DNA of 64,000 bases from a virus: the IMG/VR virus record IMGVR_UViG_3300037231_000129, positions 1 through 64,000 of that record. One strand, written 5' to 3'. The notes under the pieces are model-generated. The model did not search any database. It saw only the letters and a list, made by a program, of their open reading frames with translations, and was not told where the DNA came from. Below are positions 47,334 to 63,505 of this stretch, piece after piece. The position numbers and the translations under genes were made by a program. Positions within the stretch are counted from its first letter, which is position 1. Every line of letters starts with the position of its first letter.

Positions 47334-47348
47334 CGCCGCGTGAGCGGC

Positions 47349-47405
47349 GTGCCTTCCCTGTGATCAAGCAGGGCAGAGAGCTGGCTGCGCTCCAGCGAAA
47401 GGCAC
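47349..47405 (+). ncRNA. hammerhead-like element, type III topology, CAGAGA core (copy A1)
   Basis: GTGCCT T CCCTG/CAGGG CAGAGA GCTGG/CCAGC GAA AGGCAC. Confidence 0.55.
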
Positions 47406-47411
47406 ACCCCA

Positions 47412-47780
47412 ATGTTCAACGCAATCCTCCCCGTCGTTCGTCCCGTCGCCATTGCTGGCGCCCGGGTTGCCGGCGGCATCGCCATTGACGTGACCAAGAC
47501 CGCTGCCGGCGTCGTTGTCGGTATCGCGCTCGCGGTCGGTCTGGTTCGTGGTCTCAACAAAATCGAAACCACGTATCAGACGGTCAAGACCCGCCGCCAG
47601 GCGCGGCAGATCGCCAAATCGGTGGCTCAGGAAATCGCAAAACGCAATCTCCTGGCCTCCAACGGCTTTCTGCACCGCGACCAAGTGGCTCCTCAGCTGC
47701 ACGCTGAGATCCAACGGATGATCGACAATGGCCGTCTGGTCCTTGTCGCCGATCCGATCTCCGATGAGCTCGCCGCGTAA
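47412..47780 (+). CDS. hypothetical protein (array gene)
   Basis: GAAAGG-CACACCCCA-ATG. Confidence 0.75.
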   Translation: MFNAILPVVRPVAIAGARVAGGIAIDVTKTAAGVVVGIALAVGLVRGLNKIETTYQTVKTRRQARQIAKSVAQEIAKRNLLASNGFLHRDQVAPQLHAEIQRMIDNGRLVLVADPISDELAA

Positions 47781-47825
47781 GCGGCGTGCCTTCGGGCCTC
47801 CTAAGACCACGCCGCACCATGCGGC

Positions 47826-47884
47826 GTGCCTATCCAGCACCGCTGGACAGAGAGCCGAGACCTGTCCGTCTCGGCGAAAGGCAC
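47826..47884 (+). ncRNA. hammerhead-like element A2
   Basis: GTGCCT A TCCAGC/GCTGGA CAGAGA GCCGAGAC/GTCTCGGC GAA AGGCAC. Confidence 0.55.
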
Positions 47885-47892
47885 ACCCCAAT

Positions 47893-48162
47893 ATGCCCAC
47901 CCCCACAGAAGAAATCCTCGATCCCTCCGATGAAGAGCTGGTCGAGACCCTACGCTGCATCAACAGCCTGGCTCGGCTCCGTGAAATCATGGGCGGCCGC
48001 CTCGGCAGCTCTGATCCAACGGTCGCACTCTTGGTAGCGGTCATCTTCCGTCTCGAGCGCGACTACCAAACGGATTCGAGCGAGGCTCAGCGTGACGAAA
48101 TCAGACGCCTGGTGGCTTCGGAAAAAAGACACGAAATCACCAGCCTGCTGAATTCGCTATAA
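47893..48162 (+). CDS. hypothetical protein (array gene)
   Basis: Shared leader; 89 aa. Confidence 0.7.
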   Translation: MPTPTEEILDPSDEELVETLRCINSLARLREIMGGRLGSSDPTVALLVAVIFRLERDYQTDSSEAQRDEIRRLVASEKRHEITSLLNSL

Positions 48163-48181
48163 GAACCTGGCGCAAGCCAGG

Positions 48182-48236
48182 GCCTTCCCCACCCCGTGGG
48201 GCAGAGAGCCGGGACCTGTCAGTTCTGGCGAAAGGC
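48182..48236 (+). ncRNA. hammerhead-like element A3
   Basis: GCCT T CCCCAC/GTGGGG CAGAGA GCCGGGAC/GTTCTGGC GAA AGGC. Confidence 0.55.
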
Positions 48237-48244
48237 ACACCCCA

Positions 48245-48565
48245 ATGACTTTCAAATCCTTCCTGTCGGCGACCGGCAGCGCGATCGGTGCCACGGCAAA
48301 GATCATGAACGACGTCGCCATGACCAATGCACGTGGCAATCTCCTGTTGAGGCTTCCGACCGAGATCGACAAGATCGATACCGCATTCGGAACCTTGACA
48401 ACCGATCTTCACATGCTCGCCGCCTACGGCAAACCGAGCTCTTCCGAGCAGCTTCGCGCTACGCGGGAGATCTCTGACAAACTGGCAGCTTTGGCCGCCA
48501 AGCTTGTCGCAACATCCTCCGAACTCGCGGCTTTGGCCGGGGCCAAGAAGATGAGCCCCGCATGA
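48245..48565 (+). CDS. hypothetical protein (array gene)
   Basis: Shared leader. Confidence 0.75.
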   Translation: MTFKSFLSATGSAIGATAKIMNDVAMTNARGNLLLRLPTEIDKIDTAFGTLTTDLHMLAAYGKPSSSEQLRATREISDKLAALAAKLVATSSELAALAGAKKMSPA

Positions 48566-48571
48566 CGGGGC

Positions 48572-48625
48572 GCCTTTCCAGCACCGCTGGACAGAGAGCC
48601 GAGACCTGTCGTCTCGGCGAAAGGC
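48572..48625 (+). ncRNA. hammerhead-like element A4
   Basis: GCCT T TCCAGC/GCTGGA CAGAGA GCCGAGAC/GTCTCGGC GAA AGGC. Confidence 0.55.
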
Positions 48626-48632
48626 ACACCCA

Positions 48633-48755
48633 ATGCTCAAAACTCTTACCCGAAAACTCCTGGTCACAGGCGTTGCGCTCCTATCGGGCGCCACGGTGGC
48701 CGGGATCACTCTCGCGATCATCTCCGTCAAGGGCGCGAAAGGCGCACCCGAATAA
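48633..48755 (+). CDS. 40-aa single-TM peptide (MLKTLTRKLLVTGVALLSGATVAGITLAIISVKGAKGAPE)
   Basis: Hand-translated; shared leader. Confidence 0.65.
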   Translation: MLKTLTRKLLVTGVALLSGATVAGITLAIISVKGAKGAPE

Positions 48756-48779
48756 CCAAACTGCCCCTCTCGTAGGGGC

Positions 48780-48831
48780 GCCTTCCCCGCACCGCGGGGC
48801 AGAGAGCATCCCTGCAATGGATGCGAAAGGC
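48780..48831 (+). ncRNA. hammerhead-like element A5
   Basis: GCCT T CCCCGC/GCGGGG CAGAGA GCATCC/GGATGC GAA AGGC. Confidence 0.55.
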
Positions 48832-48839
48832 ACACCCCA

Positions 48840-49226
48840 ATGAGTTTTGCTTCATCCTTCGGCCAGCCGCTCGCGCGTACTGGCCTTAATTTGCTTCGTG
48901 GGTCCACGATCCAGGCCATCGCCCGCACTGTGGGCGTTGTCGCTGCCGCGGGTCTCCTCGGAGCAGTCTACCACGTCGTCAACGACGAGGCCCGCAACGT
49001 CGTCCAGCTCGCCCGCTTGCGAGGCCAGTACCGCCGGCACCGCCACGATCGAATACTCGTAGCGACGCTCGGCACGGCTCTGGATCCGCAGCTGCAATAC
49101 CAGCTGCTCTCGTCGCGGGATGCATTCAAACGCATCACACGCCTGCTGGTCGATCCGGCCGTCGACGACGTCTCACGTAACCAGCTGCGCCAAGCCATTG
49201 TCATGGCCTGCTCGCAGCCGGTTTAG
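48840..49226 (+). CDS. hypothetical protein with TM segment (array gene)
   Basis: Shared leader. Confidence 0.75.
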   Translation: MSFASSFGQPLARTGLNLLRGSTIQAIARTVGVVAAAGLLGAVYHVVNDEARNVVQLARLRGQYRRHRHDRILVATLGTALDPQLQYQLLSSRDAFKRITRLLVDPAVDDVSRNQLRQAIVMACSQPV

Positions 49227-49353
49227 AACGGGTATCATACCCTTTCTCGTTCCCGCTTTGGTCCACCAAAGCGGGCGGGATACCCTCTCGACTGAGAGGG
49301 GAGTCCAGCCGGCCGCTCTGAAAGCGCCGACGAAATCCCGAAAGGCACACCCA

Positions 49354-49770
49354 ATGGCCAAATCCAAGCTGTCCGAACGCATGCTTCCTGTGCGAGGTTC
49401 CAAGCAATCACATGAATTGCTGATAGAGCTGGTCGCCGAACTTAAAATGGCGGCCGAAGAAGGCACTGTCTTGCATTATGCGCCTGTTTTGGACGCTTAC
49501 GTGTCAAAGCGTAAAGCCAAACAGATAAACAAATGCTTTGAGGAAATGCTCGACGAAGTTTTGCTTCGAAAATTGACGACCCTCGAATTTTTGTTTGTTG
49601 CGGCTAGACTCTGGCATTTCGCCAAGCTAGAAACAAATATGACGATGCCGATCCAAGCACGTCCATACTTACCCAAGCTGTTCGATCTCGCCGAAGAATT
49701 CGGCGTCGCGGCAGCGGATATCGCACAAATCGAAATCGACCATGTCGTGAACCCGCCGCCCGATGATTGA
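49354..49770 (+). CDS. hypothetical protein (array gene)
   Basis: CGAAAGGCACACCCA-ATG. Confidence 0.75.
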   Translation: MAKSKLSERMLPVRGSKQSHELLIELVAELKMAAEEGTVLHYAPVLDAYVSKRKAKQINKCFEEMLDEVLLRKLTTLEFLFVAARLWHFAKLETNMTMPIQARPYLPKLFDLAEEFGVAAADIAQIEIDHVVNPPPDD

Positions 49771-49778
49771 TCGGGCGG

Positions 49779-49833
49779 GCCTTCCCCGCACCGCGGGGCA
49801 GAGAGCCGAGACCTGCACGTCCCGGCGAAAGGC
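49779..49833 (+). ncRNA. hammerhead-like element A6
   Basis: GCCT T CCCCGC/GCGGGG CAGAGA GCCGAGAC/GTCCCGGC GAA AGGC. Confidence 0.55.
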
Positions 49834-49840
49834 ACACAAA

Positions 49841-49966
49841 ATGCCGTTCCTCCTCGCCCTGGCATTCATTTACCTGCCGGGTTGGGTCTGGCCCGCGCTC
49901 ATCATTTTCGCGTTGATCGCGCTGCTAGTGCCCGGCCTTGCACCCCCCAGAACCGGCGGTAAGTAA
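49841..49966 (+). CDS. 41-aa hydrophobic peptide
   Basis: Shared leader; MPFLLALAFIYLPGWVWPALIIFALIALLVPG. Confidence 0.6.
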   Translation: MPFLLALAFIYLPGWVWPALIIFALIALLVPGLAPPRTGGK

Positions 49967-50002
49967 CCGCCGGCGCCGGCATTCAACCGGCTTGAGAAAG
50001 GG
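49946..50002 (+). ncRNA. hammerhead-like element, type II topology, UUGANAA core (B1)
   Basis: CCC A GAA CCGGCGGT/ACCGCCGG C GCCGG/CCGGC TTGAGAA A GGG. Confidence 0.6.
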
Positions 50003-50008
50003 ACAACC

Positions 50009-50284
50009 ATGACCATAGACCCCAACCTCCTCCGACCTGGTCATCGTCTGCGGTTCACCCAATCGCTGGACGTCTTCACCCTGGACCACATCTTTCCCAA
50101 AGGTGCGGCGGGCACGATCGAAGACGCCGAACTCGACGCCCTCCCGGGTCTGCCAATCCTGTATCTGCGCATGGATGACGTCTTTCCCTGCTTGAGCAGC
50201 TTCAAGAATGTTCTGCAGATCTTCCGGTCTAATGACCTGGGTGCGGAGGTGACCGACGCTGAATTCGAACCATGCGGCTTCTAA
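50009..50284 (+). CDS. hypothetical protein (array gene)
   Basis: AAAGGGA RBS. Confidence 0.7.
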   Translation: MTIDPNLLRPGHRLRFTQSLDVFTLDHIFPKGAAGTIEDAELDALPGLPILYLRMDDVFPCLSSFKNVLQIFRSNDLGAEVTDAEFEPCGF

Positions 50285-50321
50285 GCCGCCTGGTGCCAGG
50301 ACACCCCTGGCTTGATAAGGA
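50264..50321 (+). ncRNA. hammerhead-like element B2
   Basis: TTC GAA CCA.GCGGC/GCCGC.TGG T GCCAGG/CCTGGC TTGATAA GGA. Confidence 0.6.
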
Positions 50322-50328
50322 CATCCAC

Positions 50329-50934
50329 ATGTTACTCACCGACGACCAGGCCACACGCATCAACGGCCTTCTCCGTGCCACGCGGCCGTTCGCCAAATTG
50401 CCGGCGACGAACCAGCGACCCATGAACACCACGTGGCAAGCACTGAACGACACGTTGATGTCGATGCGGCTCCCCCTCTATCACAGATCCCTGCGCAAGC
50501 CGGTTCCCACGGAGAAGGTCTACGAGGCCGCCGTGCAGAATGGGCTTGCACTCCTCGGCGCGTTCGCGGCGACGCTTGGCACCAAACAGGCCATCGTCAG
50601 CAGCCGCGGCCGCTGGATCGACCGCATCAGCTTTCAGCCCCGTCCCGACGGGATGAACTGGAATGCGGCGCATGCCATCTCCCCGGAGTATCTGGTCCAA
50701 AAACGGGCCAGTGATCCGAACCAAGCTGTCTCGTTGGAGGATTTCCTGTTCATGGCCGCCAAGACTACCTACGTGGTAGCCCGGCGGTCCGCAGGCGCGA
50801 TCCCCGACATTACCGCTACCTTCGCCTTCGACGTCGCCTCCGATGGTGCGCCGACGGTCGATGGGGTGGTGCGAGAACACGGCGCCCAGACGCATAACGC
50901 GAGCTTGCTGCCGCTTTCTCCTTTCCGCCTTTGA
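50329..50934 (+). CDS. hypothetical protein (array gene)
   Basis: TAAGGA RBS. Confidence 0.7.
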   Translation: MLLTDDQATRINGLLRATRPFAKLPATNQRPMNTTWQALNDTLMSMRLPLYHRSLRKPVPTEKVYEAAVQNGLALLGAFAATLGTKQAIVSSRGRWIDRISFQPRPDGMNWNAAHAISPEYLVQKRASDPNQAVSLEDFLFMAAKTTYVVARRSAGAIPDITATFAFDVASDGAPTVDGVVREHGAQTHNASLLPLSPFRL

Positions 50935-51018
50935 GAAAGGCGCGCCCTTCGGGGCCGCTTATCCATGCACATCATCATGGACTGAAGACTTGATTTCCCG
51001 CCTGATCATTACCATATC

Positions 51019-51802
51019 AGTTGGGTCATTAAAATCCGAATGATCTGGGCCCGGTTAGCGCCCTAGAGTGCGGCGCTTCTGCGCGGCTTGAGACGATCCT
51101 GGTGCGACGGTCGCACTTGCAATTTAGCAGGCGAGATGTTGAGGAAGACATCAATAGAGATTCCGCATCGTTGTGGTACTTGCAAGAACGCGGAAAAGGC
51201 CAATGCTCGACTGTAAGGCCAGTTGGGATTTGAGTACGGCAGCACTTGTAACCCTGCCCGAACACGGGGGCGCCACCCTCCAAGCCTAAACCTCTTCTAT
51301 TTCGTCCAATGAGTATCGACCAAAATGGCTCCGCTATAGTCCATCGGCATGCCGGTCATCCGGATTGATGCCAGTTAGAATGCGGTTCCGAGTGCCTGGG
51401 GTCTATGGCCCCCAGGCCGCCATGAGTAGTCGAGCCATCCGTAGTGGTAGAAGTTGGTTTGACTATGGAAATCAAACTGATGGAATTCACCGCGGAGATC
51501 CTATCCGGCAAGCCATTGGCGACCGCAAGGGCGCCGAGAATGCCGAGAGTTCATGCAGGCCCATGAGCAGGATAGGATCTGGTTTCCGTCGCATAACGCG
51601 GCGGGCTGAGAACTCGCCCGGGGCCTGGTCGCAATCCAGTAGCCAGAGCCCCCGGGCGGCAGAAACCAGATATCATTCCCATAGCATAGCGGTCCGAGTA
51701 GCTTAGTGCGCTCGACTGCTAAGGCCGGCAGCTTCTGCTGTGTTTCGAAAGGAACCCGCGTTGGGTGTGCGCGGCGGCCGGCATCTCACCCACCACCCAA
51801 CT
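51019..51802 (+). ncRNA. candidate large structured non-coding RNA (about 780 nt)
   Basis: No credible ORF; many nested helices; 5'/3' closing helix AGTTGGGT/ACCCAACT; followed by a terminator. Confidence 0.6.
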
Positions 51803-51804
51803 TC

Positions 51805-51839
51805 CCCCCTGACAGGACCCCCTGTCAGGGGGTTTTTTT
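51805..51839 (+). terminator. strong intrinsic terminator
   Basis: CCCCCTGACAGG-ACCC-CCTGTCAGGGGG followed by T7. Confidence 0.85.
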
Positions 51840-52262
51840 GTGCCTTTGACGCCAGCTCGCCAGTCCGTGCAACGCGGCGCGGAGTAATGGCTGCTGGGTG
51901 GCCGTGGGCGGGTTTTCCCACACCACGCAATTTACCAGCACATTCCAGGAATCCGGGCCGATCGCGTCGTAGGCATGCGCCAGCTGGTGCAACGCGGCTG
52001 CCTGCTCAGACGCGCGCGTTGCGTCTGCTTCAGTGAACGAGGAGCGGCTCAACCGCCCGCGGAGGTTGCCTGTCGTCGCCATTTCGCCAAACCAGGCGGC
52101 CGCGCCCAGCAGTTTGGCGACCTCGTCGCCCAGCTCGCCGGCGTGCGCCATCACCTCGAGCGGTGTGAGCATGCGGCCCGGAATGACGGTTTTCACGACC
52201 ATCCGGCCATCTTTGATCGTGACGTCGGCGAATGCCGCCTTGACACGATGTTGATACGCCAT
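51825..52262 (-). CDS. DUF6456-like putative transcriptional (late/antitermination) regulator
   Basis: GAGGGG RBS; C-terminal A..AIG....VL..CV.......LLRAAL..LA pattern. Confidence 0.45.
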   Translation of the reverse strand: MAYQHRVKAAFADVTIKDGRMVVKTVIPGRMLTPLEVMAHAGELGDEVAKLLGAAAWFGEMATTGNLRGRLSRSSFTEADATRASEQAAALHQLAHAYDAIGPDSWNVLVNCVVWENPPTATQQPLLRAALHGLASWRQRHKKTP

Positions 52263-52328
52263 GGAAAACCCCTCTATCGTGGACCATGATCTTGCCTACG
52301 ACTCTAGGAAAGCGGTTAACATCCGGCC

Positions 52329-52865
52329 ATGAAAGCCCCGACCAGCCTCCCCGTTCTGCCATTAAAAGCCGATATCACGAGCGAGGTGGGTCAGATCGCG
52401 ATCGCGATCCCACTGGCCACGACGTATCTGCTTTCACTGATCGATCCGGCCGACAAGAAAGGTAAACGGCATCTGTATAATCAGCGGCACTTGCGAAATT
52501 TGACCGGCGGTGGCGACAAGAATGGCAAAGGCGGCAACGAAGAAGACCGGCTGCACAAGAATTCGATCCTGAAAATCTGGGACCTGCGCAAGATATGGGC
52601 GGTCCCTCAGCCAATAAATCCCACTTTGGGGAGAGCCTATCGAAAAGCATGCTCAGTGGCTGGTGGTACGCCCACCATGAAGAAACCGAAAATGCACTGG
52701 ATCGAGGCGAAAGAGGGTGCATCCGGCTTCATGGGCGAAAGCGGGCGCTACCAATGGCTGTGGAACCCTGAGGTTTCCACCTTCGAGAAGCTGGAGCTGA
52801 TCCTCGCTGAAGCCCGCCGGCGGGGGTTTGACGCCGAGGTGGTCAAGATGCGGCAAGCGGCGTGA
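52329..52865 (+). CDS. hypothetical protein
   Basis: 178-aa ORF. Confidence 0.6.
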   Translation: MKAPTSLPVLPLKADITSEVGQIAIAIPLATTYLLSLIDPADKKGKRHLYNQRHLRNLTGGGDKNGKGGNEEDRLHKNSILKIWDLRKIWAVPQPINPTLGRAYRKACSVAGGTPTMKKPKMHWIEAKEGASGFMGESGRYQWLWNPEVSTFEKLELILAEARRRGFDAEVVKMRQAA

Positions 52866-52877
52866 GGGATCCCCCGC

Positions 52878-53501
52878 GTGAGCCCCGAAAACGCCCCATC
52901 CTCGCTCACCATCCCTGTTGCGTCTGCGCCTCTCGATTTGCTCCCTACGGCGTCGGAAAAAGCTTTCCTTGGATCTTCAGTCAGGACTGGGAAACCTACT
53001 TCAAATCCATGCTCTGGTACTGTCCGAAGCACAATCCAGACACCGCGGCGTCGCAACCATTACGAACGCCGGCTGCAAATCTACCTCGTGCGTCAGTTCC
53101 GCCGCCTGGTCGATCCACTGGACGCGAGCCTGATCGCGATCGAGAACGGCGAAGACCGTAGCCCGGAGACGCTCGAGCTGCTCGATGCCATGGGGTTGGA
53201 GGCCGGTATCACCGACCTGGTGCTGCTCGCCACAGGCGCACGGGCGCACTGGATCGAGATCAAGCTGGCCAAGACGGATCTGCATGCAGCGACCGACGTG
53301 CGGCCCAACCAGCAGGTGATCCACAACCTGCTCCGCTATTATCGCTTCCAGGTCAGCGTGGTGCGGACGGCGGACGAATTCTGGGCAATCGTGGATGCGA
53401 TGCAGATCCACCATTTGCCGCGGCCGCCGGTGCATGAGCAGCTGCACCTGCCGGTGATGCGCCGGCGGCGGCTGAAGCGCCCGACGGCCGAGGCGGCCTA
53501 G
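52878..53501 (+). CDS. VRR-NUC (PD-(D/E)xK) nuclease
   Basis: E..LQ, MGL.AGITDL, WIEIK, Q...H..L...V.VVR. Confidence 0.75.
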   Translation: MSPENAPSSLTIPVASAPLDLLPTASEKAFLGSSVRTGKPTSNPCSGTVRSTIQTPRRRNHYERRLQIYLVRQFRRLVDPLDASLIAIENGEDRSPETLELLDAMGLEAGITDLVLLATGARAHWIEIKLAKTDLHAATDVRPNQQVIHNLLRYYRFQVSVVRTADEFWAIVDAMQIHHLPRPPVHEQLHLPVMRRRRLKRPTAEAA

Positions 53502-53532
53502 CCGATCGGCTTAGCCGGCGGCCGCGATTCCA

Positions 53533-53763
53533 TCAGTTGTCCCGTTTTTCCATGCGAGAGAGTCGGCCGGGACGGTTTCCCCTGAGCCTGCGGCCTGCAT
53601 CCGTCAGCCAAAGCAACCGGTTCTCCGTCCTGGTGACGAGGCCGGCTGACGTCGCGGCGGCGACGATCGCCCGGTCATCCGGCAGGCTACGCGATTCCCA
53701 CCATTCGGCGAACAGCGTGCTGTCAGCGATGACGGCCTGGGGCGTCGGATCTTGCGTCATCAT
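53533..53763 (-). CDS. hypothetical protein
   Basis: ATGA coupling. Confidence 0.5.
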   Translation of the reverse strand: MMTQDPTPQAVIADSTLFAEWWESRSLPDDRAIVAAATSAGLVTRTENRLLWLTDAGRRLRGNRPGRLSRMEKRDN

Positions 53764-57238: not shown

Positions 57239-57241
57239 CGG

Positions 57242-58561
57242 TTAGAACTCGGATCCCGCCCAGTCTGGAGGAGGATCCCCGGCATTGCCGCTATGCCCGT
57301 TATTTTGCCCGTACAGCGGGTCTGGCGTTTTCCCCACCTGCTGACCGGCGAAATCGTCGGACCGTGCTGAGGCGCCAAAAATCTCTGCCCGCAGAACCGG
57401 ATCACGCTCGACCGCCTGCCACATAAACGAGCCTGGTTTGCTGGGATCGTATCCCCAAGCCTCTTTGAGGGCGGCATTCTGATCACTGACGAACGTGATC
57501 TTCACCATCGAGAAATCGCTGCAATGAAGGGGATCAATGCCCGGCGGTATGTCAACCAGGATCGCTGGATTACGCGAAAGATCGACCAGGTTGGCGTAAT
57601 TGTCGCGGATCAGAGCGTAGAGATCGAGCTGGCGCAGCCGTTCCTCCGACACGTTGGCCAATGTTTTCAGCGGCAAGCTGGCCCACCACCGGCTGATGTT
57701 TTCGCTGGTGGCGATTTGGCGAATTGACGCTGGATAGCCGCCTCGACGATCGCCGCGGAAGAATGGGTCCTTCGCAGCCCAGCGACAGCAGCGTGCCCAA
57801 CGATCAAGCTTGTTCTCGATGCTGGTATGTTTCATCGCCTGCTGGAGCATGATGCACTCGCCGCGGGTCGGCGTTCCCACCATCGGGATCAGCGGCGATC
57901 CTGCGATTTCGCGATTCCAGACTTCGATGATCTCGGCCGGGCTCGGCATGCGGGGTGCTGGAGGTGGCGGCTCGACCCCCGGCAGCGACGGCTCGGCGAT
58001 CGGAGCGGTGGTCGCATCCACCGGCGCTGGGCGCGCCCCCTGCCCGTCCGATGGATCGACAGGCCCTTCATGCACGAAGGAGCTCTTCGGGGGGGCCGCC
58101 GGCGAAGCCGGTGGCGGCGCGGTGGCGCAGTCCGGATCGGCCTCGAAAATTGGTCGCGCGCTCTCTTTCTCTTTCTTGTTTATTTCCTTGATTGATTCGT
58201 AGGACTCTGTGACCGGTGCAAACGTCGTTCGAGTCCAGTCGGTCCTGTCGTCGGAGTCCGTTTTCACCGGCCGGGACGTAAACCCGACGATTTGGTAAGT
58301 GCTGGCAGTGCGGCGTCCCTGCCCACTGACCAGAATTCGTAGCAGACCCATTTCGACCAATTGATCGATGGTGCGCCGGACGCTGCGCTCGTTGGCATGG
58401 ACCATCTCGGCCAGCCGGTTGATCGTTGGATAACTGATGCCCTGGCAATTGGCGTGCTGACCAAAGGCTTGCAGGAGGTAACCTTGCAGCTGTGTTCGCA
58501 CCTGTTGTGCCCATGCCCATTGAGCGCCCGCTACGTTGACGTAAGTCGTGGTGCAGCTCAT
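57242..58561 (-). CDS. phage replication initiator-like protein with N-terminal winged HTH
   Basis: GISYPTINRLAEM...ERSVRRTIDQL; directly upstream of the helicase. Confidence 0.75.
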   Translation of the reverse strand: MSCTTTYVNVAGAQWAWAQQVRTQLQGYLLQAFGQHANCQGISYPTINRLAEMVHANERSVRRTIDQLVEMGLLRILVSGQGRRTASTYQIVGFTSRPVKTDSDDRTDWTRTTFAPVTESYESIKEINKKEKESARPIFEADPDCATAPPPASPAAPPKSSFVHEGPVDPSDGQGARPAPVDATTAPIAEPSLPGVEPPPPAPRMPSPAEIIEVWNREIAGSPLIPMVGTPTRGECIMLQQAMKHTSIENKLDRWARCCRWAAKDPFFRGDRRGGYPASIRQIATSENISRWWASLPLKTLANVSEERLRQLDLYALIRDNYANLVDLSRNPAILVDIPPGIDPLHCSDFSMVKITFVSDQNAALKEAWGYDPSKPGSFMWQAVERDPVLRAEIFGASARSDDFAGQQVGKTPDPLYGQNNGHSGNAGDPPPDWAGSEF

Positions 58562-58929
58562 GGGACGAGCTCCTCGCTTGAGGAGTCGGGTGGAAAACCG
58601 ATTATTTGGTAGATGATGATTTGCTCCGCGTCGCCGCGGCGCTCACCCGTATCGGCAATAAAGTTGCCGGCTATGAGACGTTCTGGAATTCTGGTGAGAG
58701 TTTTCTCGCTCACATTTGTGACGCTGCCTAGCATCTGGTTTTTATCCGGTGCGCTGATGCCATTTTCATCGGCCCAAGAAGCGAGGCTGAAAAGGATGAA
58801 TTTTTCCTTGTGATTGCCCGGTTGCTTGGGAATTACGTATGCTATCGCATCTGCGTTGATCGGACGTTCCTTAGCAGGGAGTGCCAAAATGGCTGTTTGG
58901 TCCACGTTCATGTTCCGCCCCTTCATCAC
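58558..58929 (-). CDS. winged-HTH protein related to the initiator N-terminus
   Basis: KFILFSLASWADENGISAP...SEKTL...YQIIGF. Confidence 0.6.
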   Translation of the reverse strand: MMKGRNMNVDQTAILALPAKERPINADAIAYVIPKQPGNHKEKFILFSLASWADENGISAPDKNQMLGSVTNVSEKTLTRIPERLIAGNFIADTGERRGDAEQIIIYQIIGFPPDSSSEELVP

Positions 58930-59207
58930 AATCGATTTGCGACGCGGCGTGAAACTGAAACGAGGGCTTGCAGCCCAGACATATAACCACTAATTTGCCA
59001 GACGAGGTCATGGCAGACCAGGTGCTTCAACGCGGACGAGGGCCCGCGAAGTGTCTGAGCGTCGAATCCGTCGCCACGGTTTCCCGCTTCGTCAGTCAAG
59101 TCAGGGGCGGTCGGGTTAGCTGGCCGACCGCCCCACCTCTTCATCAAACTCCAGACTGTAATCAGCGAGTCCCAATCACGCAATATCCATGATTCCAGCT
59201 GCGACAC
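58926..59207 (-). CDS. hypothetical protein
   Basis: Coupled ORF; weak support. Confidence 0.35.
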   Translation of the reverse strand: MSQLESWILRDWDSLITVWSLMKRWGGRPANPTAPDLTDEAGNRGDGFDAQTLRGPSSALKHLVCHDLVWQISGYMSGLQALVSVSRRVANRL

Positions 59208-59400
59208 ATTTGCTGTATTTTCAATACCTAAACGATTCCAGTCGCTTGATCGCCAGAGTCGGCATCACCATATCTATTGGGCAATAACCACACGCAAAAA
59301 TTTACCACCGGGACTCGGTTTTTTGTGCCGATCCATAGAACGGCCGGTCTGCATGCACGCATGCGAATCGTCTGTGTTCCCGTTTTGAACGTGGTTTTCA

Positions 59401-59484
59401 TATCCGAAACCGCTCCGTGGCCGTGCCTCCCTCCCATGACCACGGGACGATCCGCCGGCGATCAAGCCGGCACTGATGAGGATA
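59401..59484 (+). ncRNA. type II hammerhead-like element with canonical CUGAUGA/GAAA core (C1)
   Basis: TATCC GAAA [imperfect stem III, CCGTGG/CCACGG] TC C GCCGGC/GCCGGC A CTGATGA GGATA. Confidence 0.7.
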
Positions 59485-59488
59485 CCCC

Positions 59489-59722
59489 ATGACAACACGC
59501 ATCCCGCAGGTCGTTCTGGACGCTTACGTCGCGCGTTGGTCGCATCTCGGGATATTGGCCGGGAAGGTCAATGATCCTGCTGTCACCGGCCTGCGCGCCG
59601 CACGCACATTCGCCCAGACGGTTTGCTGTCTCGAATCACCTCCCACGGTCACCATCAACCAGGTTCGCGGGCTTGCCCGCGTGGCCAATGGCGAACCCTG
59701 GGAAGCGATCCCCGACGTTTGA
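59489..59722 (+). CDS. hypothetical protein (array gene)
   Basis: GAGGA RBS from the element. Confidence 0.7.
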   Translation: MTTRIPQVVLDAYVARWSHLGILAGKVNDPAVTGLRAARTFAQTVCCLESPPTVTINQVRGLARVANGEPWEAIPDV

Positions 59723-59775
59723 AACCCCGGCCCGCCGGGTTCCCGGCGCAATCTGGCGCCGGACTGATGAGGAAC
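59721..59775 (+). ncRNA. hammerhead-like element C2
   Basis: GAAA C CCCGG/CCGGG TT C CCGGCGC/GCGCCGG A CTGATGA GG; stem II weak. Confidence 0.55.
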
Positions 59776-59780
59776 ACCCC

Positions 59781-60026
59781 ATGCCACCAAGAAGACGCGT
59801 TGAATGGCTCGCGGCGAAAGCCGAGGGTCAATGCAACGACGTGCCCTACGACACCGAGCTGGTGAACAGCAACGGCGTCTCCATCCATTTTTGGCTGGGC
59901 GACCGTGAACCCACCGACGAACTGCTCGACGATCTCTCACGACGTGCCTGCAATCGGCGGGACATCGTGCGGATCCAATTCTCCGAGGGTCAGCCCACCG
60001 GCTTCTGGGCTCACTCCGATTTCTGA
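59781..60026 (+). CDS. hypothetical protein (array gene)
   Basis: GAGGAACACCCC-ATG. Confidence 0.7.
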   Translation: MPPRRRVEWLAAKAEGQCNDVPYDTELVNSNGVSIHFWLGDREPTDELLDDLSRRACNRRDIVRIQFSEGQPTGFWAHSDF

Positions 60027-60027
60027 C

Positions 60028-60082
60028 GAAACCCCGGCTCAGCCGGGTTTCCGGCGCAATCCTGCGTCGGGCTGATGAAAGG
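60028..60082 (+). ncRNA. hammerhead-like element C3
   Basis: GAAA C CCCGGC/GCCGGG TT TCCGGCGC/GCGTCGGG CTGATGA; stem II poor. Confidence 0.5.
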
Positions 60083-60088
60083 AATCAC

Positions 60089-60601
60089 ATGCCCCTTACC
60101 GTCCTTCGCGACGGTGCAGCACCGGTCATTCTTTCCAACCGGACTGTCTTTGATCAACTTCCCGACGAGATTGACGTAGCCGAGCTGATGAGCTCGATCC
60201 GCGCCGGCGACACCGTGCCCGTTACCTTACGGGAGATCGGTGCTGTCCGGCTGACGTCGCCAGGCATGGTGCCAACGCTGGATTACAATCCGCCCCAGCA
60301 ATCGTTGGCTCTGTCCACGGCGCATCCCATGCCCGTGGATCGGCCGTTCGAACTCGAATGCCGGATCCTGGTTCCAATCGATGCCATGATCAATTGCCAT
60401 GCCCCCTCCAAAAAGGAGGCTATGGAATTGGCCAACAAGGTTTTCGATGGTGTCAGGCAGGCGCCTTCGAGTTTCCAGGTGGTGGTGAACCGCGATGATA
60501 TAGCGGAAATCTTCCACGATCTGGAGAACGGCATGTCGCGCAGACGCTTCGACCTGATTGGCGCCCACAACCTGGTGGTCAATCGAACGGAAGAACGATG
60601 A
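60089..60601 (+). CDS. hypothetical protein (array gene)
   Basis: AAAGGA RBS. Confidence 0.7.
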   Translation: MPLTVLRDGAAPVILSNRTVFDQLPDEIDVAELMSSIRAGDTVPVTLREIGAVRLTSPGMVPTLDYNPPQQSLALSTAHPMPVDRPFELECRILVPIDAMINCHAPSKKEAMELANKVFDGVRQAPSSFQVVVNRDDIAEIFHDLENGMSRRRFDLIGAHNLVVNRTEER

Positions 60602-60614
60602 AAGAATCCAGCCC

Positions 60615-61190
60615 ATGGCAAATCTGACTGTTTACCGCCAGCAAGAGCCACCGTTTTCAATGACGATGGCCAACTGCCTGGCGGCCGCTGCCACCCAGGA
60701 AGACACCGATCTGATTGCCCTGTCCATGCGCACCAAGCGCCCTGCTCTGGTGGGCCTCGACAGCCGGTCGTCGATCATTCTACCCGGTGGAGACCTCGAC
60801 GGACGTACCACGTTCGAAGATCTCTACGACACCTGCCTGACATTGGTCGACCTGCAGCACATGCGGGAGGCCAATGTTAGCAACCCTGAGGATGTGCCAC
60901 TGCGAGCCTACAGGCTCGAAGTGTTGTTTGCGATCGATGGCACCTGCCAAATACCGATTGCTCTTCTCGCCAGTTCTATCGGCGATGCACGCCCCCGTTT
61001 GCGTACTCTCCTCGCCAAGGATGTTATGTTCCGCGAAGCCCTGTTTGACGCTGTCATTCAGGCTATCGACCGGAACTTTCGGGCTGAGGAGGATATCGTA
61101 TTCCGGGTGCGGGAGAGCAGCATGGACGATCGCTCCATCATCCCGCCCCTGCTCCCAGGGGCCGGGCCAGAGTGGCGCATTCTTGAGTAA
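60615..61190 (+). CDS. hypothetical protein
   Basis: ORF without a preceding element. Confidence 0.65.
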   Translation: MANLTVYRQQEPPFSMTMANCLAAAATQEDTDLIALSMRTKRPALVGLDSRSSIILPGGDLDGRTTFEDLYDTCLTLVDLQHMREANVSNPEDVPLRAYRLEVLFAIDGTCQIPIALLASSIGDARPRLRTLLAKDVMFREALFDAVIQAIDRNFRAEEDIVFRVRESSMDDRSIIPPLLPGAGPEWRILE

Positions 61191-61192
61191 GT

Positions 61193-61253
61193 GAAAACCC
61201 CGTAGCGGATACCGCCGCGGGGTTTTGCTTGCATTCAGCAAGCATTGATAAGG
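61193..61253 (+). ncRNA. hammerhead-like element B3 (A15.1-U16.1, UUGAUAA core)
   Basis: GAA AACCCCG/CGGGGTT T TGCTTGC/GCAAGCA TTGATAA GG; stem II weak. Confidence 0.55.
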
Positions 61254-61263
61254 AACACACCCA

Positions 61264-61506
61264 ATGTCTGACGAACCCAAGATCCTTGACGGGATCGCTA
61301 TGCCCCCGATCCACCCCTCGATCACCATGGACTTGGTTCTCGAAGCCATGGATCGCTCACCAAGCGAGACAGACGCCCTCGGCTTCTGCCTGGCGTGTGG
61401 CGAGAGCGTGCGAGAGATCGCTACGAGCACCAGGCGCGAGACATGCGGCTTCTGCGGTTGCCCTGCCGTCTTCGGCGCCGAGGAAATCATGTTCATTCTC
61501 GCCTGA
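61264..61506 (+). CDS. zinc-finger phage protein
   Basis: GFCLACG...CGFCG...VFGAEE. Confidence 0.75.
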   Translation: MSDEPKILDGIAMPPIHPSITMDLVLEAMDRSPSETDALGFCLACGESVREIATSTRRETCGFCGCPAVFGAEEIMFILA

Positions 61507-61557
61507 TCCGAACCTGGGCCACGCCCGGGCGCGGGCATTTCGCCCGCTTGAAAAGGA
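61507..61557 (+). ncRNA. hammerhead-like element B4
   Basis: TCC GAA CCTGGGC/GCCCGGG C GCGGGC/GCCCGC TTGAAAA GGA. Confidence 0.62.
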
Positions 61558-61564
61558 ACACCCC

Positions 61565-61810
61565 ATGTCGAAAACCGCTCAGGAGATCCTGGATGCCCTG
61601 CCCCTGCCGCCGATCCATTCGAGCGTCACGCCCGAGCGGCTCACCGAGGCGCTCACCCGCTATCAGCAGACCTTGGATAACCCAGGGTTTTGTTTGAGTT
61701 GCGGCGCCGAGGCCGAGGGCTGCGAACCCGATGCCCGTCGCTACCACTGCGACGAGTGCGGACAGCCCGCCGTCTTCGGCGCCGAGGAACTCGTGCTGAT
61801 GACGATGTAG
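61565..61810 (+). CDS. zinc-finger phage protein, paralog of the previous gene
   Basis: GFCLSCG..EPDARRYHCDECG..VFGAEE. Confidence 0.8.
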   Translation: MSKTAQEILDALPLPPIHSSVTPERLTEALTRYQQTLDNPGFCLSCGAEAEGCEPDARRYHCDECGQPAVFGAEELVLMTM

Positions 61811-61819
61811 GAGGCAGCC

Positions 61820-62041
61820 ATGGCAGCGCGTCTCTGGAATCCTCACATTGGCACCCTGAAAGGCGGCCTACATCATAGTGTGGCCTACATCATTCAGATG
61901 CGGGTGCCACGCGATGAAGGCTATGGCTCGCCCATGGTCGCCCTGTCCGATTACACCACTTCCCGCCGTACGGCGGATAGCTGGTTGGCGGATGCTCGGG
62001 TGAAGGCCGGCCGCTATCTCAGGGATACCCGAAACAAATAA
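61820..62041 (+). CDS. hypothetical protein
   Basis: AGGAGG RBS. Confidence 0.65.
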   Translation: MAARLWNPHIGTLKGGLHHSVAYIIQMRVPRDEGYGSPMVALSDYTTSRRTADSWLADARVKAGRYLRDTRNK

Positions 62042-62090
62042 CCGAACCCGGGCTACACCCGGGTGCGAGCATCCCGCTCGCTTGAAAAGG
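62042..62090 (+). ncRNA. hammerhead-like element B5
   Basis: CC GAA CCCGGG/CCCGGG T GCGAGC/GCTCGC TTGAAAA GG. Confidence 0.6.
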
Positions 62091-62099
62091 AAACACCCC

Positions 62100-62693
62100 A
62101 TGGCTTCCTATCGTGAACTCGCGGCCGCCATCGAGGCGCTCTGCCGCGCTATTCGTGCTCGAACGATATCGCCTGCCTCGGCGTTGCTCACGTCATGTGA
62201 AGCGCTTGCCGCGGCCGCTCGCCGTGGCATCGTTGCTCAATCGCCCTGGACGCCCTTCGAGCCAGCGACAGCGCCGCCGATCTCCGAACGGGCACTGCAG
62301 CTCACCGCTGAAAGACTGAACCTGCCCCTTGAGGACGTCCGTCGTGAGTTGACCGACGAAATCCAGGGACCGCAGATCTTCATCAACAGCCGCTACCAGG
62401 TCGCCATGCGGCTTTGGGAACCCGGCGTCATGTATCTGTCGATCAAGCGTCTGGACCAGCAACCCATCCGGTCCTGGCGCGACCTGCAGCGGATCAAGAC
62501 CGAACTGGTTGGCCCCGAAAACGAAGGGGTCGAACTGTTCCCCGCGGAATCGCGGCTCATCGATCGGGCCAACCAGTTCCACCTGTTCATTTTGACCGAT
62601 CCAGCGGCGCGGTTCCCGTTCGGTTACAAGCACACCCGCGACGTCGGCCCTCCCGTTGGCCTTGGCGAGGCGCAGGAACCATTCGAGGCATAA
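62100..62693 (+). CDS. conserved phage protein (DUF7694-like C-terminus)
   Basis: LSIKRLD..WRDLQRIK.ELVGPE.E.VELFPAESRL.D.ANQFHL; family name tentative. Confidence 0.7.
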   Translation: MASYRELAAAIEALCRAIRARTISPASALLTSCEALAAAARRGIVAQSPWTPFEPATAPPISERALQLTAERLNLPLEDVRRELTDEIQGPQIFINSRYQVAMRLWEPGVMYLSIKRLDQQPIRSWRDLQRIKTELVGPENEGVELFPAESRLIDRANQFHLFILTDPAARFPFGYKHTRDVGPPVGLGEAQEPFEA

Positions 62694-62694
62694 T

Positions 62695-62739
62695 CCGAAC
62701 CCCTTCGGGGGTGCGAGCAATCAAGCTCGCTTGAAAAGG
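62695..62739 (+). ncRNA. hammerhead-like element B6
   Basis: CC GAA CCCC-TTCG-GGGG T GCGAGC/GCTCGC TTGAAAA GG. Confidence 0.6.
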
Positions 62740-62747
62740 CTACACCC

Positions 62748-62950
62748 ATGTCGAGGCACCCTCAATTCAGAATGGGATTTAAGACCGGCAACAATGCTTT
62801 CGATTACGGTCTGGGCATCCTGGAATCCATCGCATTTTGACCGAGATCAACGCCAAAATCGCTGATGGCGATCGAATAGGTAAGATCATGGACAGCAACG
62901 GCAATTCCATCGGCCAGTGGTCACTGGAATTGCCGGACGATAAAGATTGA
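62748..62950 (+). pseudogene. frameshifted small phage gene (FKTGNNAF... / RILTEINAKIADG..GKIMDSNGNSIGQW)
   Basis: The first frame stops after 30 aa; the continuation is in another frame near 62830. Confidence 0.6.
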
Positions 62951-62951
62951 G

Positions 62952-63003
62952 CCGAACCCGCGGCGCAAGCCCGGGCGCGAGCGATCAAGCTCGCTTGATA
63001 AGG
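62952..63003 (+). ncRNA. hammerhead-like element B7
   Basis: CC GAA CCCG.GGC-GCAA-GCC CGGG C GCGAGC/GCTCGC TTGATAA GG. Confidence 0.62.
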
Positions 63004-63012
63004 AAACACCCA

Positions 63013-63447
63013 ATGGGATACACACATTTTTGGTTTGCACCCGAAGCAATCAGACCCCGCATCTGGTGGGTCGTGATGGCCGACGCGCTTAAGTTGGTGG
63101 AAGCATTCCCAGGCCCTGGTGGCCTCTGCATGGGCATCGAGAACCAAGCCCAGCGAGCCTTCGTCTCACGCGAGGAAATCCGCTTCAATGGCGGACCAGG
63201 CGCGCAGGCGGAGGATTTCAGGCTCACCCGGGAAGCCGGCAAACGGTATAGCTCCTGCAAGACCCAGCATCAGCCCTATGAACGGCTGGTCTGTGCTATA
63301 CTTGCCTCCACCGCTGATCGTACTCGGCTCATTCGCGTCACCAGCGATGGCAATCATCACGATTGGTTACCATATATAGAGTGGGCGTCCACGGTGTTGC
63401 GGCGTCCACTCCCGATGCCGATCCATACCAACGAAATCACAGGGTAA
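63013..63447 (+). CDS. conserved phage protein (MGYTH.W...IRFNG...CKT..PY...V.SDG)
   Basis: Shared leader; recognisable motif pattern. Confidence 0.75.
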   Translation: MGYTHFWFAPEAIRPRIWWVVMADALKLVEAFPGPGGLCMGIENQAQRAFVSREEIRFNGGPGAQAEDFRLTREAGKRYSSCKTQHQPYERLVCAILASTADRTRLIRVTSDGNHHDWLPYIEWASTVLRRPLPMPIHTNEITG

Positions 63448-63505
63448 CGAACCCCACCGCCCGGTGGGGACGCCGGCGATCAAGCCGGCACTGAGGAGTA
63501 ACCCT
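63441..63505 (+). ncRNA. hammerhead-like element C4 (CUGAGGA core, C15.1-G16.1)
   Basis: AGGGTAAC GAA CCCCACC/GGTGGGG A C GCCGGC/GCCGGC A CTGAGGA GTAACCCT. Confidence 0.68.

What the first reader, a model, noticed from the sequence alone, without database searches (positions are those of the whole stretch)
47334..63505. One hammerhead-like ribozyme per gene: two phage gene arrays punctuated by 17 three-way-junction RNAs
Seen: in two plus-strand arrays (47.3-50.3 kb and 59.4-63.5 kb) nearly every small gene is preceded by a 45-85 nt element. Stem sequences differ between copies but stay paired, while the unpaired junctions are conserved in hammerhead order: GAA - stem III - one unpaired base - stem I - YUGANRA - stem II. 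Starts: 47349, 47826, 48182, 48572, 48780, 49779, 49946, 50264, 59401, 59721, 60028, 61193, 61507, 62042, 62695, 62952, 63441. Known: the hammerhead core is CUGANGA...GAAA...UH, and hammerheads occur in phage intergenic regions. Inference: the phage cuts polycistronic early RNA into monocistronic units, each with a 5'-OH, a protective hairpin and an RBS, like a natural RiboJ-style insulator array or an RNase-independent analogue of T7 early mRNA processing. Alternatively the elements are cassette junctions for gene shuffling.
Basis: partly seen in the sequence, partly recalled or inferred. Interest (0 to 1): 0.93.

Follow-up and report, generated by a model that had tools for sequence, protein, structure and literature searches.

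The report
Ribozyme-punctuated phage early-gene arrays
An uncultured 98-kb phage puts a small hammerhead-type RNA in front of almost every gene of two gene arrays: most look like self-cutting hammerhead ribozymes (a layout known since 2011), but six belong to a widespread, uncatalogued relative with an altered core and an extra knot, whose ability to cut is untested.

Summary
All 17 listed elements are real, sense-strand, covarying three-way-junction RNAs that sit directly before start codons. They are two families, not one.

- **Type II hammerheads:** Five have the canonical core. Seven have U3/A8, and seven replace A15.1-U16.1 with C-G.
- **The 'CAGAGA' family:** the six copies at 47.3-49.8 kb have type III topology and a six-base core (U4 changed to A, position 7 absent). 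No Rfam model reports them.

I found 76 distinct CAGAGA-family copies: in a related phage (terminase 58% identical), in soil and peat metagenome contigs, and in alphaproteobacterial prophages. These copies are usually mixed with type II hammerheads. Thirteen of 15 stem pairs show compensatory changes. Core position 4 also covaries with the middle base of a conserved loop II triplet (A-U, G-C, G.U, U-A). That implies a pseudoknot that does not fit the hammerhead active fold.

Ribozyme clusters that flank single phage genes were published in 2011, and this scan has met such arrays, and apparently this variant, on other DNA. Cutting of the long transcripts into single-gene mRNAs is the best reading. 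It is unproven here and open for the CAGAGA family.

The parts
47350..47405 (+). CAGAGA-family element 1 (type III topology). Predicted H17 = U47355. Preceded by a hairpin over the upstream stop codon; followed by ATG 47412.
   Evidence: 57.6 bits; MFE = three-way junction
47827..47884 (+). CAGAGA-family element 2. H17 = A47832. Gene start 47893.
   Evidence: (62.8 bits)
48181..48238 (+). CAGAGA-family element 3. H17 = U48186. Gene start 48245.
   Evidence: (65.5 bits)
48571..48627 (+). CAGAGA-family element 4. H17 = U48576. Gene start 48633.
   Evidence: (62.8 bits)
48779..48833 (+). CAGAGA-family element 5. H17 = U48784. Gene start 48840.
   Evidence: (67.9 bits)
49227..49353 (+). Expanded structured leader in the same slot. 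It has the same outer helix and RBS module as the CAGAGA family but three internal hairpins and no CAGAGA core. Gene start 49354.
   Evidence: MFE -56.1 kcal/mol, z = -4.0; not found by R1 or R2
49778..49835 (+). CAGAGA-family element 6. H17 = U49783. Gene start 49841.
   Evidence: (62.9 bits)
49943..50006 (+). Type II hammerhead variant. Core at 49992-49998 with U3/A8; C15.1-G16.1; H17 = C49974. The upstream stop codon lies in the stem III loop.
   Evidence: 35.6 bits
50260..50326 (+). Type II hammerhead variant. Core at 50312-50318 with U3/A8; C15.1-G16.1; H17 = U50294.
   Evidence: 45.3 bits
50928..50996 (+). Type II hammerhead with canonical core at 50982-50988, A15.1-U16.1 and H17 = A50961. 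No gene follows; it heads an 850-nt structured non-coding stretch.
   Evidence: 41 bits
50989..51840 (+). Gene-free, strongly structured RNA region. It ends at the only strong + strand intrinsic terminator (51805-51832 plus a U run), which closes the first transcription unit.
   Evidence: z = -5.2
59399..59487 (+). Type II hammerhead. Canonical core at 59473-59479, a perfect 5-bp stem II that contains the SD, long stem III, H17 = C59452.
   Evidence: RF02276 17.5 bits; 58.4 bits
59714..59778 (+). Type II hammerhead. Canonical core at 59764-59770. This is the best Rfam match.
   Evidence: RF02276 25.8 bits, gathering score 37; 56.8 bits
60021..60086 (+). Type II hammerhead. Canonical core at 60072-60078; H17 = U60049.
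   Evidence: 49.1 bits
61186..61259 (+). Type II hammerhead. U3/A8 core at 61245-61251 together with A15.1-U16.1; H17 = U61225.
   Evidence: 55.5 bits
61503..61562 (+). Type II variant. U3/A8; C15.1-G16.1; H17 = C61530.
   Evidence: 54 bits
62037..62096 (+). Type II variant. U3/A8; C15.1-G16.1; H17 = U62064.
   Evidence: 49 bits
62690..62745 (+). Type II variant. U3/A8; C15.1-G16.1; H17 = U62712.
   Evidence: 47.9 bits
62947..63009 (+). Type II variant. U3/A8; C15.1-G16.1; H17 = C62976.
   Evidence: 47.9 bits
63442..63505 (+). Type II hammerhead. Canonical C3/G8 core at 63491-63497 but C15.1-G16.1; H17 = A63470 (hand parse).
   Evidence: 54.1 bits

Best explanation
Two long + strand transcription units of this tailed phage (about 46.9-51.8 kb, and 59.3 to about 72 kb) carry a hammerhead-type RNA at nearly every gene junction.

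The 12 in-window type II copies (17-18 in the genome) are most likely self-cleaving hammerheads. They would cut 3' of H17 as the RNA is made. Each upstream piece would then end in a hairpin (stem III) with a 2',3'-cyclic phosphate. Each downstream piece would start with a 5'-OH directly on the stem I hairpin.

In every copy the Shine-Dalgarno is the 3' strand of the open helix, and its partner strand leaves with the upstream fragment. Cleavage would therefore also unmask the ribosome-binding site.

The six copies at 47.3-49.8 kb belong to a hammerhead-derived family. This family has type III topology and a CAGAGA core strand, and core positions 3-5 can pair with loop II. It occupies the same slot in this phage and in related phages, so it probably does the same job. 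It may do so either as a remodelled or pseudoknot-gated ribozyme or as a non-cutting leader.

Shown here: the structures, their covariation, their positions, and their spread. Inferred: the cleavage, the nature of the RNA ends, and the RBS unmasking.
For: **Type II copies**
- All 12 in-window copies keep G5, A6, A9, G12, A13 and A14, and have a non-G H17.
- Positions 3 and 8 are either C/G or U/A. Published natural hammerheads show that same covariation and are active (PMC3088659).
- Stems I and III covary: 82-89% paired, with all 14 pairs showing changes on both sides.
- Rfam Hammerhead_II gives its only hammerhead-like signals in the genome at six of these copies (E 2e-4 to 0.03).
- Published tandem prophage hammerheads cut about 2-kb polycistronic RNAs in vitro.

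**Transcription units**
- There is no excess of promoter-like sites inside the arrays, and there is a single strong terminator at 51805-51832.

**CAGAGA family**
- I found 76 distinct copies.
- Conservation: U16.1 76/76; A15.1 75/75; H17 = U68, C7, A1, G0; C3 75/76; G5 76/76; G8 75; A9 75; G12, A13 and A14 essentially invariant.
- 13 of 15 stem pairs are compensatory.
- Intermediate forms exist: CAGAUGA in G001, and CUGANAA with a variable position 7 in G049.
- The family is mixed with type II hammerheads in the same arrays. One 4.3-kb contig, L267, holds 6 type II and 2 CAGAGA copies.
- It persists across phages whose terminases are 44-58% identical.
Against: - No cleavage data are available, and reads could not be obtained.
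- No copy reaches an Rfam gathering score (best 25.8 against 37). The CAGAGA family gets no hammerhead hit even at E <= 10.
- Seven of the 12 in-window type II copies have C15.1-G16.1 instead of A-U. Mutants at 15.1/16.1 lose at least 10-fold activity (PMC3088659).
- Stem II is weak (66% paired).
- In the CAGAGA family, U4 and N7 are both changed. These are the partners of the U-turn contact.
- Core position 4 covaries with the middle of the loop II triplet: A-U in about 70 copies, G-C in 2, G.U in 1, and U-A in 4 paralogues. Pairing of positions 3-5 with loop II cannot coexist with the C3-G8 pair and the hammerhead pocket.
- Some relatives carry C3 with A8, uncompensated.
Confidence: 0.55

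Rival explanations
1. The CAGAGA family (six copies here) is an ex-hammerhead that no longer cuts. It would be a structured translation or stability leader. Its pseudoknot (core positions 3-5 with loop II) and its outer helix hold the Shine-Dalgarno in a defined fold. That fold would be opened by ribosomes, by temperature or by a phage protein. Only the type II copies would process the RNA.
For: - Core position 4 covaries with loop II through three Watson-Crick states plus one wobble.
- U4 and N7 are altered, and G8 is replaced by A in the G049 form.
- No Rfam hammerhead model scores the family.
- The SD (AGG at -12 to -10) is the 3' strand of the outer helix, pairing with CCU.
- A non-hammerhead structured leader occupies the same slot at 49227-49353.
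Against: - The residues that remain invariant are exactly the hammerhead catalytic set: G5, A6, A9, G12, A13, A14, the 15.1-16.1 pair, and a non-G H17 in all 76 copies. A mere leader would not need to keep them.
- The family alternates with true hammerheads at equivalent junctions.
- The G-C and U-A states each rest on one or two evolutionary events.
Confidence: 0.3
2. The elements are recognition structures for host or phage ribonucleases (RNase P-, E- or III-type processing of intercistronic regions), not self-cleavers.
For: - The folds are compact and conserved at every junction.
- A conserved A/C-rich tail follows the outer helix.
- T7-type RNase III processing of early mRNA is an established precedent (own knowledge).
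Against: - The conserved unpaired bases match the hammerhead core position by position, not any known RNase site.
- ARAGORN was not run. The Rfam scan found only one true tRNA in the window.
- Published arrays of the same design cut without protein.
Confidence: 0.07
3. They are DNA-level cassette junctions or recombination sites for shuffling small genes.
For: - The elements flank single, fast-evolving ORFan genes (no PHROG or Pfam hits).
- Two neighbouring genes are paralogues (44% identity).
- Several stem I loops carry a GATC-containing motif.
Against: - Pairing is strand-specific. U.G wobbles are frequent (28 of 76 at pair 1.1-2.1) and become C.A on the other strand.
- Reverse-strand model scores collapse (69.7 against 20.7 bits).
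- Stems differ between copies, so they offer no homology for recombination.
- The elements are always sense-strand and fused to the RBS.
Confidence: 0.03

Closest known systems
Clustered hammerhead ribozymes flanking single genes or short gene blocks in prophages (Perreault et al. 2011, PMC3088659)
   Same: - Sense-strand hammerheads between phage genes.
- Types II and III are mixed.
- The proposed role is processing of long transcripts into single-gene mRNAs.
- Natural U3-A8 covariation occurs.
- Stem II is weak.
- There is an association with Mu-like phage genes; this phage has a Mu F-like protein.
   Different: - The published clusters are two or three ribozymes. Here there are about 24 in one genome, nearly one per gene.
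- Most copies replace A15.1-U16.1 by C-G.
- One quarter belong to a family with a changed core.
Type III hammerhead ribozyme (Rfam RF00008)
   Same: For the six CAGAGA copies:
- the open helix is stem III;
- junction lengths are 1 and 3 nt on two sides;
- U16.1/A15.1, H17 not G, C3, G5, A6, G8, A9, G10.1-C11.1 and G12-A14 are all in hammerhead order.
   Different: - The core strand has 6 nt, not 7 (no N7).
- Position 4 is A (rarely G), not U.
- The loop II triplet is complementary to positions 3-5 and covaries with them.
- There is no RF00008 hit at E <= 10.
Type II hammerhead ribozyme (Rfam RF02276)
   Same: The order is stem II 5' strand - GAA(A) - stem III - H17 - stem I - CUGANGA - stem II 3' strand. 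Six genome copies get weak RF02276 hits.
   Different: - Scores are 17-26 bits against a gathering score of 37.
- I found no loop I / 3'-tail pseudoknot.
- C15.1-G16.1 is present in 7 of the 12 in-window copies.
- The 3' strand of stem II doubles as the Shine-Dalgarno.
Self-cleaving ribozymes in 5' UTRs of RNA viruses that enable translation initiation (PMC13725137)
   Same: A ribozyme sits immediately upstream of an ORF, and self-cleavage is coupled to translation of the downstream gene.
   Different: Those are eukaryotic, cap-independent systems. Here the proposed link is unmasking of a bacterial Shine-Dalgarno, and it is untested.
RiboJ-type synthetic insulators and RNase III processing of T7 early mRNA (own knowledge, not checked here)
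   Same: Each cistron gets a defined 5' end followed by a hairpin, independent of upstream context.
   Different: RiboJ is engineered. T7 uses a host protein enzyme, not RNA catalysis.

Membership tests
Hammerhead ribozyme, type II (12 in-window copies) | Three helices around one junction, in the order II(open)-III-I, with covarying stems | tested here: met
   Structural parse. In the alignment of 30 copies, stems I and III are 82-89% paired and all 14 of their pairs show compensatory change. Stem II is only 66% paired.
Hammerhead ribozyme, type II (12 in-window copies) | Core strand C3 U4 G5 A6 N7 G8 A9 | tested here: met
   Five copies are canonical (50935, 59406, 59721, 60028, 63449). Seven have the compensated U3/A8 pair (49950, 50267, 61193, 61510, 62044, 62697, 62954), a variant published as active.
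Hammerhead ribozyme, type II (12 in-window copies) | G12 A13 A14 and a cleavage-site base H17 that is not G | tested here: met
   GAA is invariant in all copies. H17 is C, U or A (plus hand parses of 59406 and 63449).
Hammerhead ribozyme, type II (12 in-window copies) | A15.1-U16.1 pair | tested here: not met
   Met in 5 copies and replaced by C-G in 7. Across 30 copies the counts are AU:16 and CG:12.
Hammerhead ribozyme, type II (12 in-window copies) | Score at or above the Rfam RF02276 gathering threshold | tested here: not met
   The best score is 25.8 bits against 37.
Hammerhead ribozyme, type II (12 in-window copies) | Site-specific self-cleavage 3' of H17 | not testable with these tools
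Hammerhead ribozyme, type III (six CAGAGA copies) | Three-way junction with stem III open and covarying stems | tested here: met
   97.6-98.6% paired, and 13 of 15 pairs compensatory over 76 distinct copies.
Hammerhead ribozyme, type III (six CAGAGA copies) | Seven-base core strand CUGANGA | tested here: not met
   The strand is CAGAGA: A4 in 72 of 76 copies, G4 in 4, and no N7.
Hammerhead ribozyme, type III (six CAGAGA copies) | GAAA, A15.1-U16.1, and H17 not G | tested here: met
   G12, A13, A14 and A15.1 are present in 74-75 of 75-76 copies. U16.1 is 76/76. H17 is U68, C7, A1, G0.
Hammerhead ribozyme, type III (six CAGAGA copies) | Core bases 3-6 free to form the catalytic pocket (C3 pairs with G8) | tested here: inconclusive
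   Positions 3-5 are complementary to a conserved loop II triplet and covary with it. This may be an alternative, inactive conformer or the native fold.
Hammerhead ribozyme, type III (six CAGAGA copies) | Recognised by an Rfam hammerhead model | tested here: not met
   No hammerhead or other ribozyme family is reported at E <= 10.

The most novel reading that the evidence does not exclude
The CAGAGA family is a working, previously undescribed branch of the hammerhead ribozyme. Its uridine turn is remodelled (A4, no N7), and core positions 3-5 pair with loop II in an H-type pseudoknot. This could be a built-in OFF state that gates cleavage, and with it release of the Shine-Dalgarno. For example, it could respond to ribosomes finishing the upstream gene. 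Alternatively, it could be part of a new active architecture.
Probability: 0.3. Interest if true: 0.8.

Novelty: new variant of a known kind. Interest (0 to 1): 0.6.

Why it matters
The biological role of bacterial and phage hammerheads is still described as largely unknown (review PMC6765202). This phage group offers an extreme and regular case: about one ribozyme per gene, with the ribosome-binding site built into the fold. The idea that cleavage defines mRNA ends and switches on translation could therefore be tested directly, for example in the alphaproteobacterial prophages that carry the same arrays.

The CAGAGA family is absent from Rfam 15 and from the papers I could search. It has at least 76 distinct natural copies. 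It keeps the hammerhead catalytic purines but changes positions held to be near-invariant. It therefore offers a natural experiment on how far the hammerhead core can be rebuilt, or on how a ribozyme is converted into a regulatory fold.

Tried and rejected
- **Loose pattern scan.** A 15-base pattern for the CAGAGA element in viral contigs gave more than 120 single chance hits and was useless. A 19-base version then found the related phage G001.
- **Relatives by primase-helicase.** This returned 80 loci at 36% identity or less. Only one hammerhead was found in 1.2 Mb, so the arrays are not a general feature of those distant phages.
- **Other routes to relatives.** A search by the DUF7694 gene gave one locus. 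blastn of the second array against GenBank phages gave no match.
- **MAFFT alignments of the type II copies.** These put the U3/A8 group one column out of register. I built model R1 on that seed anyway. The realignment (A8) is still imperfect for some C15.1-G16.1 rows, so the 81% paired figure is an underestimate.
- **A longer pseudoknot.** A first-reader note proposed that loop II tracks the stem I/core boundary. This did not hold over the family: the fourth position is often unpaired. Only the three-base pairing with covariation at its middle is supported.
- **More U4- or G4-type members.** Pattern scans in viral contigs gave only chance hits.
- **Rfam.** No family other than weak Hammerhead_II hits was found. 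The twister, twister-sister, pistol, hatchet and RAGATH models gave nothing.
- **A tRNA-like or RNase P substrate reading** of the CAGAGA fold was considered. It was rejected as unsupported.

Full report
**Setting.** The window is the first 64 kb of a 98,024-bp IMG/VR virus record that CheckV rates 96% complete. The record encodes a portal, a large terminase, a Mu F-like head protein and a primase-helicase. It has no close cultured relative: its terminase is at most 40% identical to those of Rhizobium phages. The two arrays lie on the + strand. They consist of small genes with no PHROG hits, and the only Pfam hit above its curated cut-off is one DUF7694.

**Checking the observation.** All 17 coordinates mark real elements that end 7-12 nt before a start codon. 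They fall into two families.

*Type II family.* Eleven listed copies (49946, 50264, 59401-63441) have the stated order: GAA - stem III - one base - stem I - YUGANRA - stem II. That is type II hammerhead topology.
- Five copies carry the canonical core strand. Seven carry U3/A8.
- Five keep A15.1-U16.1. Seven have C-G there.
- H17 is never G.
- Rfam's Hammerhead_II model gives sub-threshold hits at six genome copies (17.5-25.8 bits against a gathering score of 37).
- My covariance model R1 finds only the 17 genome copies in 78 kb (35-72 bits; next best 14 bits). It finds one hammerhead in 1.2 Mb of distantly related phage DNA.
- Over 30 copies from this phage and from metagenome relatives, stems I and III are 82-89% paired. 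Every pair shows compensatory change, and slid controls give 35-46%.

*CAGAGA family.* The six copies at 47349-49779 differ. Their order is an upstream hairpin over the previous stop codon, then GCCU, one base, stem I, CAGAGA, stem II (closed by G-C), GAA and AGGC. This is type III topology. The core strand matches the hammerhead core except that U4 is A and N7 is absent. Each isolated copy folds into this three-way junction as its minimum-energy structure. No Rfam family, hammerhead or other, reports these copies even at E <= 10.

**Relatives of the CAGAGA family.** A 19-base pattern found a 91.5-kb phage record, G001, whose terminase is 58% identical to this phage's. G001 carries about 14 copies. 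Five of them were not in the seed and score 45-56 bits. One scan each of the metagenome and genome collections, followed by a structural filter, gave 25 loci with valid copies.
- Most are soil and peat contigs.
- Two are alphaproteobacterial MAG contigs.
- A survey of 151 genomes of that order found arrays in two genomes. In one of them, G049, a terminase 44% identical to this phage's lies about 8 kb from the array.

In all, model R2 collected 88 hits, 76 of them distinct.
- 97.6% of cells are paired, and 13 of 15 pairs have compensatory changes. None of 500 shuffles reached this; slid controls give 32-49%.
- The unpaired positions are almost invariant: U16.1 76/76; H17 = U68, C7, A1, G0; C3 75; G5 76; A6 73; G8 75; A9 75; G12, A13 and A14 in all but one or two copies.
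- The same contigs also carry type II hammerheads, including the U3/A8 + C15.1-G16.1 form. Contig L267 has six type II and two CAGAGA copies in 4.3 kb.

Mixed arrays of this kind are therefore a property of a whole phage group, probably one infecting Alphaproteobacteria.

**The pseudoknot.** Loop II of the CAGAGA family begins with a conserved triplet complementary to core positions 3-5. The middle pair covaries.
- A4 goes with U in about 70 copies.
- The three complete copies with G4 have C in two cases and U in one.
- The four G049 paralogues have a seven-base core with U4, a variable N7 and A8. They carry A in the loop triplet.

The order of strands is: triplet, three or four purines, stem II 5' strand, loop triplet, two to five loop bases, stem II 3' strand. 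That is the order of a classical H-type pseudoknot, and the loop lengths suit one (inference from general RNA structure knowledge).

Such pairing cannot coexist with the hammerhead active fold, in which C3 pairs with G8 and positions 3-6 line the cleavage pocket (PMC3088659). There are two ways to read this: the pseudoknot is an alternative inactive conformer, or the family has left the hammerhead fold.

The G-C and U-A states each rest on very few independent events, so this point is suggestive rather than proven. A longer pairing proposed in a first-reader note is not general. An intermediate copy in G001 has a seven-base core with A4 and no loop triplet. A type II-like copy with A4 lies at genome position 64326-64392. 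The core is thus unusually plastic in this lineage at positions 3, 4, 7 and 8, while G5, A6, A9 and G12-A14 stay fixed.

**How it most likely works.** The region 46-64 kb has no more promoter-like sites than shuffled sequence. It has one strong + strand terminator, at 51805-51832. This fits long polycistronic transcripts.

In both families the Shine-Dalgarno (GG at about -10) is the 3' strand of the open helix. Its partner is a CC(U)-containing strand that lies 5' of the predicted cleavage site. Cleavage 3' of H17 would give three results:
- an upstream mRNA ending in a hairpin (stem III, or the extra upstream hairpin in the CAGAGA family);
- a downstream mRNA beginning with a 5'-OH on the stem I hairpin;
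- a Shine-Dalgarno held only by a short intermolecular helix.

Upstream stop codons lie inside or just before the elements. Terminating ribosomes must therefore unfold them, which may couple folding to upstream translation (inference).

Published tandem prophage hammerheads cut about 2-kb transcripts at every ribozyme in vitro, and one set also cut in vivo. That is the main external support. None of the cleavage steps is shown for this phage.

**Comparison with what is known.** Clusters of hammerheads flanking single phage genes, natural U3-A8 covariation, weak stem II and a weakly active 15.1-16.1 variant were all reported in 2011. The link of ribozymes to Mu-like phage genes, and the unresolved function, are restated in later papers. 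This scan has already followed up several such arrays on other DNA. Two earlier notes appear to describe the same altered-core, pseudoknotted family elsewhere; I did not test those.

What I could not find in Rfam 15 or in the searchable papers:
- the CAGAGA family itself;
- the covariation of its core with loop II;
- the prevalence of C15.1-G16.1.

I therefore rate the arrays as a large instance of a known layout, and the CAGAGA family as a new variant of a known kind. Its catalytic status is the open question.

**Verdict.** The processing interpretation is the best available, and is well precedented for the type II copies. It is unproven, and genuinely uncertain for the six copies of the first array.

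Noticed in passing
window 50989-51840 (+): An 850-nt stretch with no credible gene lies between the last hammerhead of the first array (50935-50988) and a strong terminator (12-bp stem plus a U run at 51805-51839). It folds far better than shuffles (z = -5.2). It may be a large structured RNA whose 5' end is made by the ribozyme. There is no Rfam match.
   Followed up: partly
window 49227-49353 (+): This is a different 127-nt structured leader in the same pre-gene slot. It has the same outer helix and RBS module as the CAGAGA family but encloses three hairpins and lacks the core (z = -4.0). It suggests a slot that accepts interchangeable RNA modules.
   Followed up: partly
L001:326-392 (genome 64326-64392, +): A type II-shaped three-way junction has an A4 core (seven bases), an extra C after GAA, and two unpaired bases at the H17 site. 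It is either a decayed copy or a further variant. Model R1 missed it.
   Followed up: partly
stem I loops of type II copies (e.g. window 59460-59465, 62983-62988, 63478-63483) and of CAGAGA copy 1 (47362-47369): Seven of the 17 type II copies have a stem I loop ending in AUCAA, and five of those read GAUCAA. The first CAGAGA copy has the same motif. This puts a GATC site in the DNA.
   Followed up: no
window 61264-61506 and 61565-61810 (+): Two adjacent small genes are paralogues (44% identity over 73 aa, four-cysteine pattern). Each has its own hammerhead, and the stems of the two are entirely different.
   Followed up: partly
window 62748-62950 (+): The gene after the hammerhead at 62697 appears split into two short frames (30 aa, then 37 aa from a TTG). 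This may be a frameshift or an assembly error.
   Followed up: no
window 45473-45545 (-): A phage-borne tRNA gene (64 bits) lies just upstream of the first array, on the opposite strand.
   Followed up: no
L267:1948-2016 and L267:3634-3698 (-), metagenome contig: These type II copies have C3 with A8, so the 3-8 pair is not compensated, together with C15.1-G16.1. They are further evidence of relaxed core constraints in this phage group.
   Followed up: no
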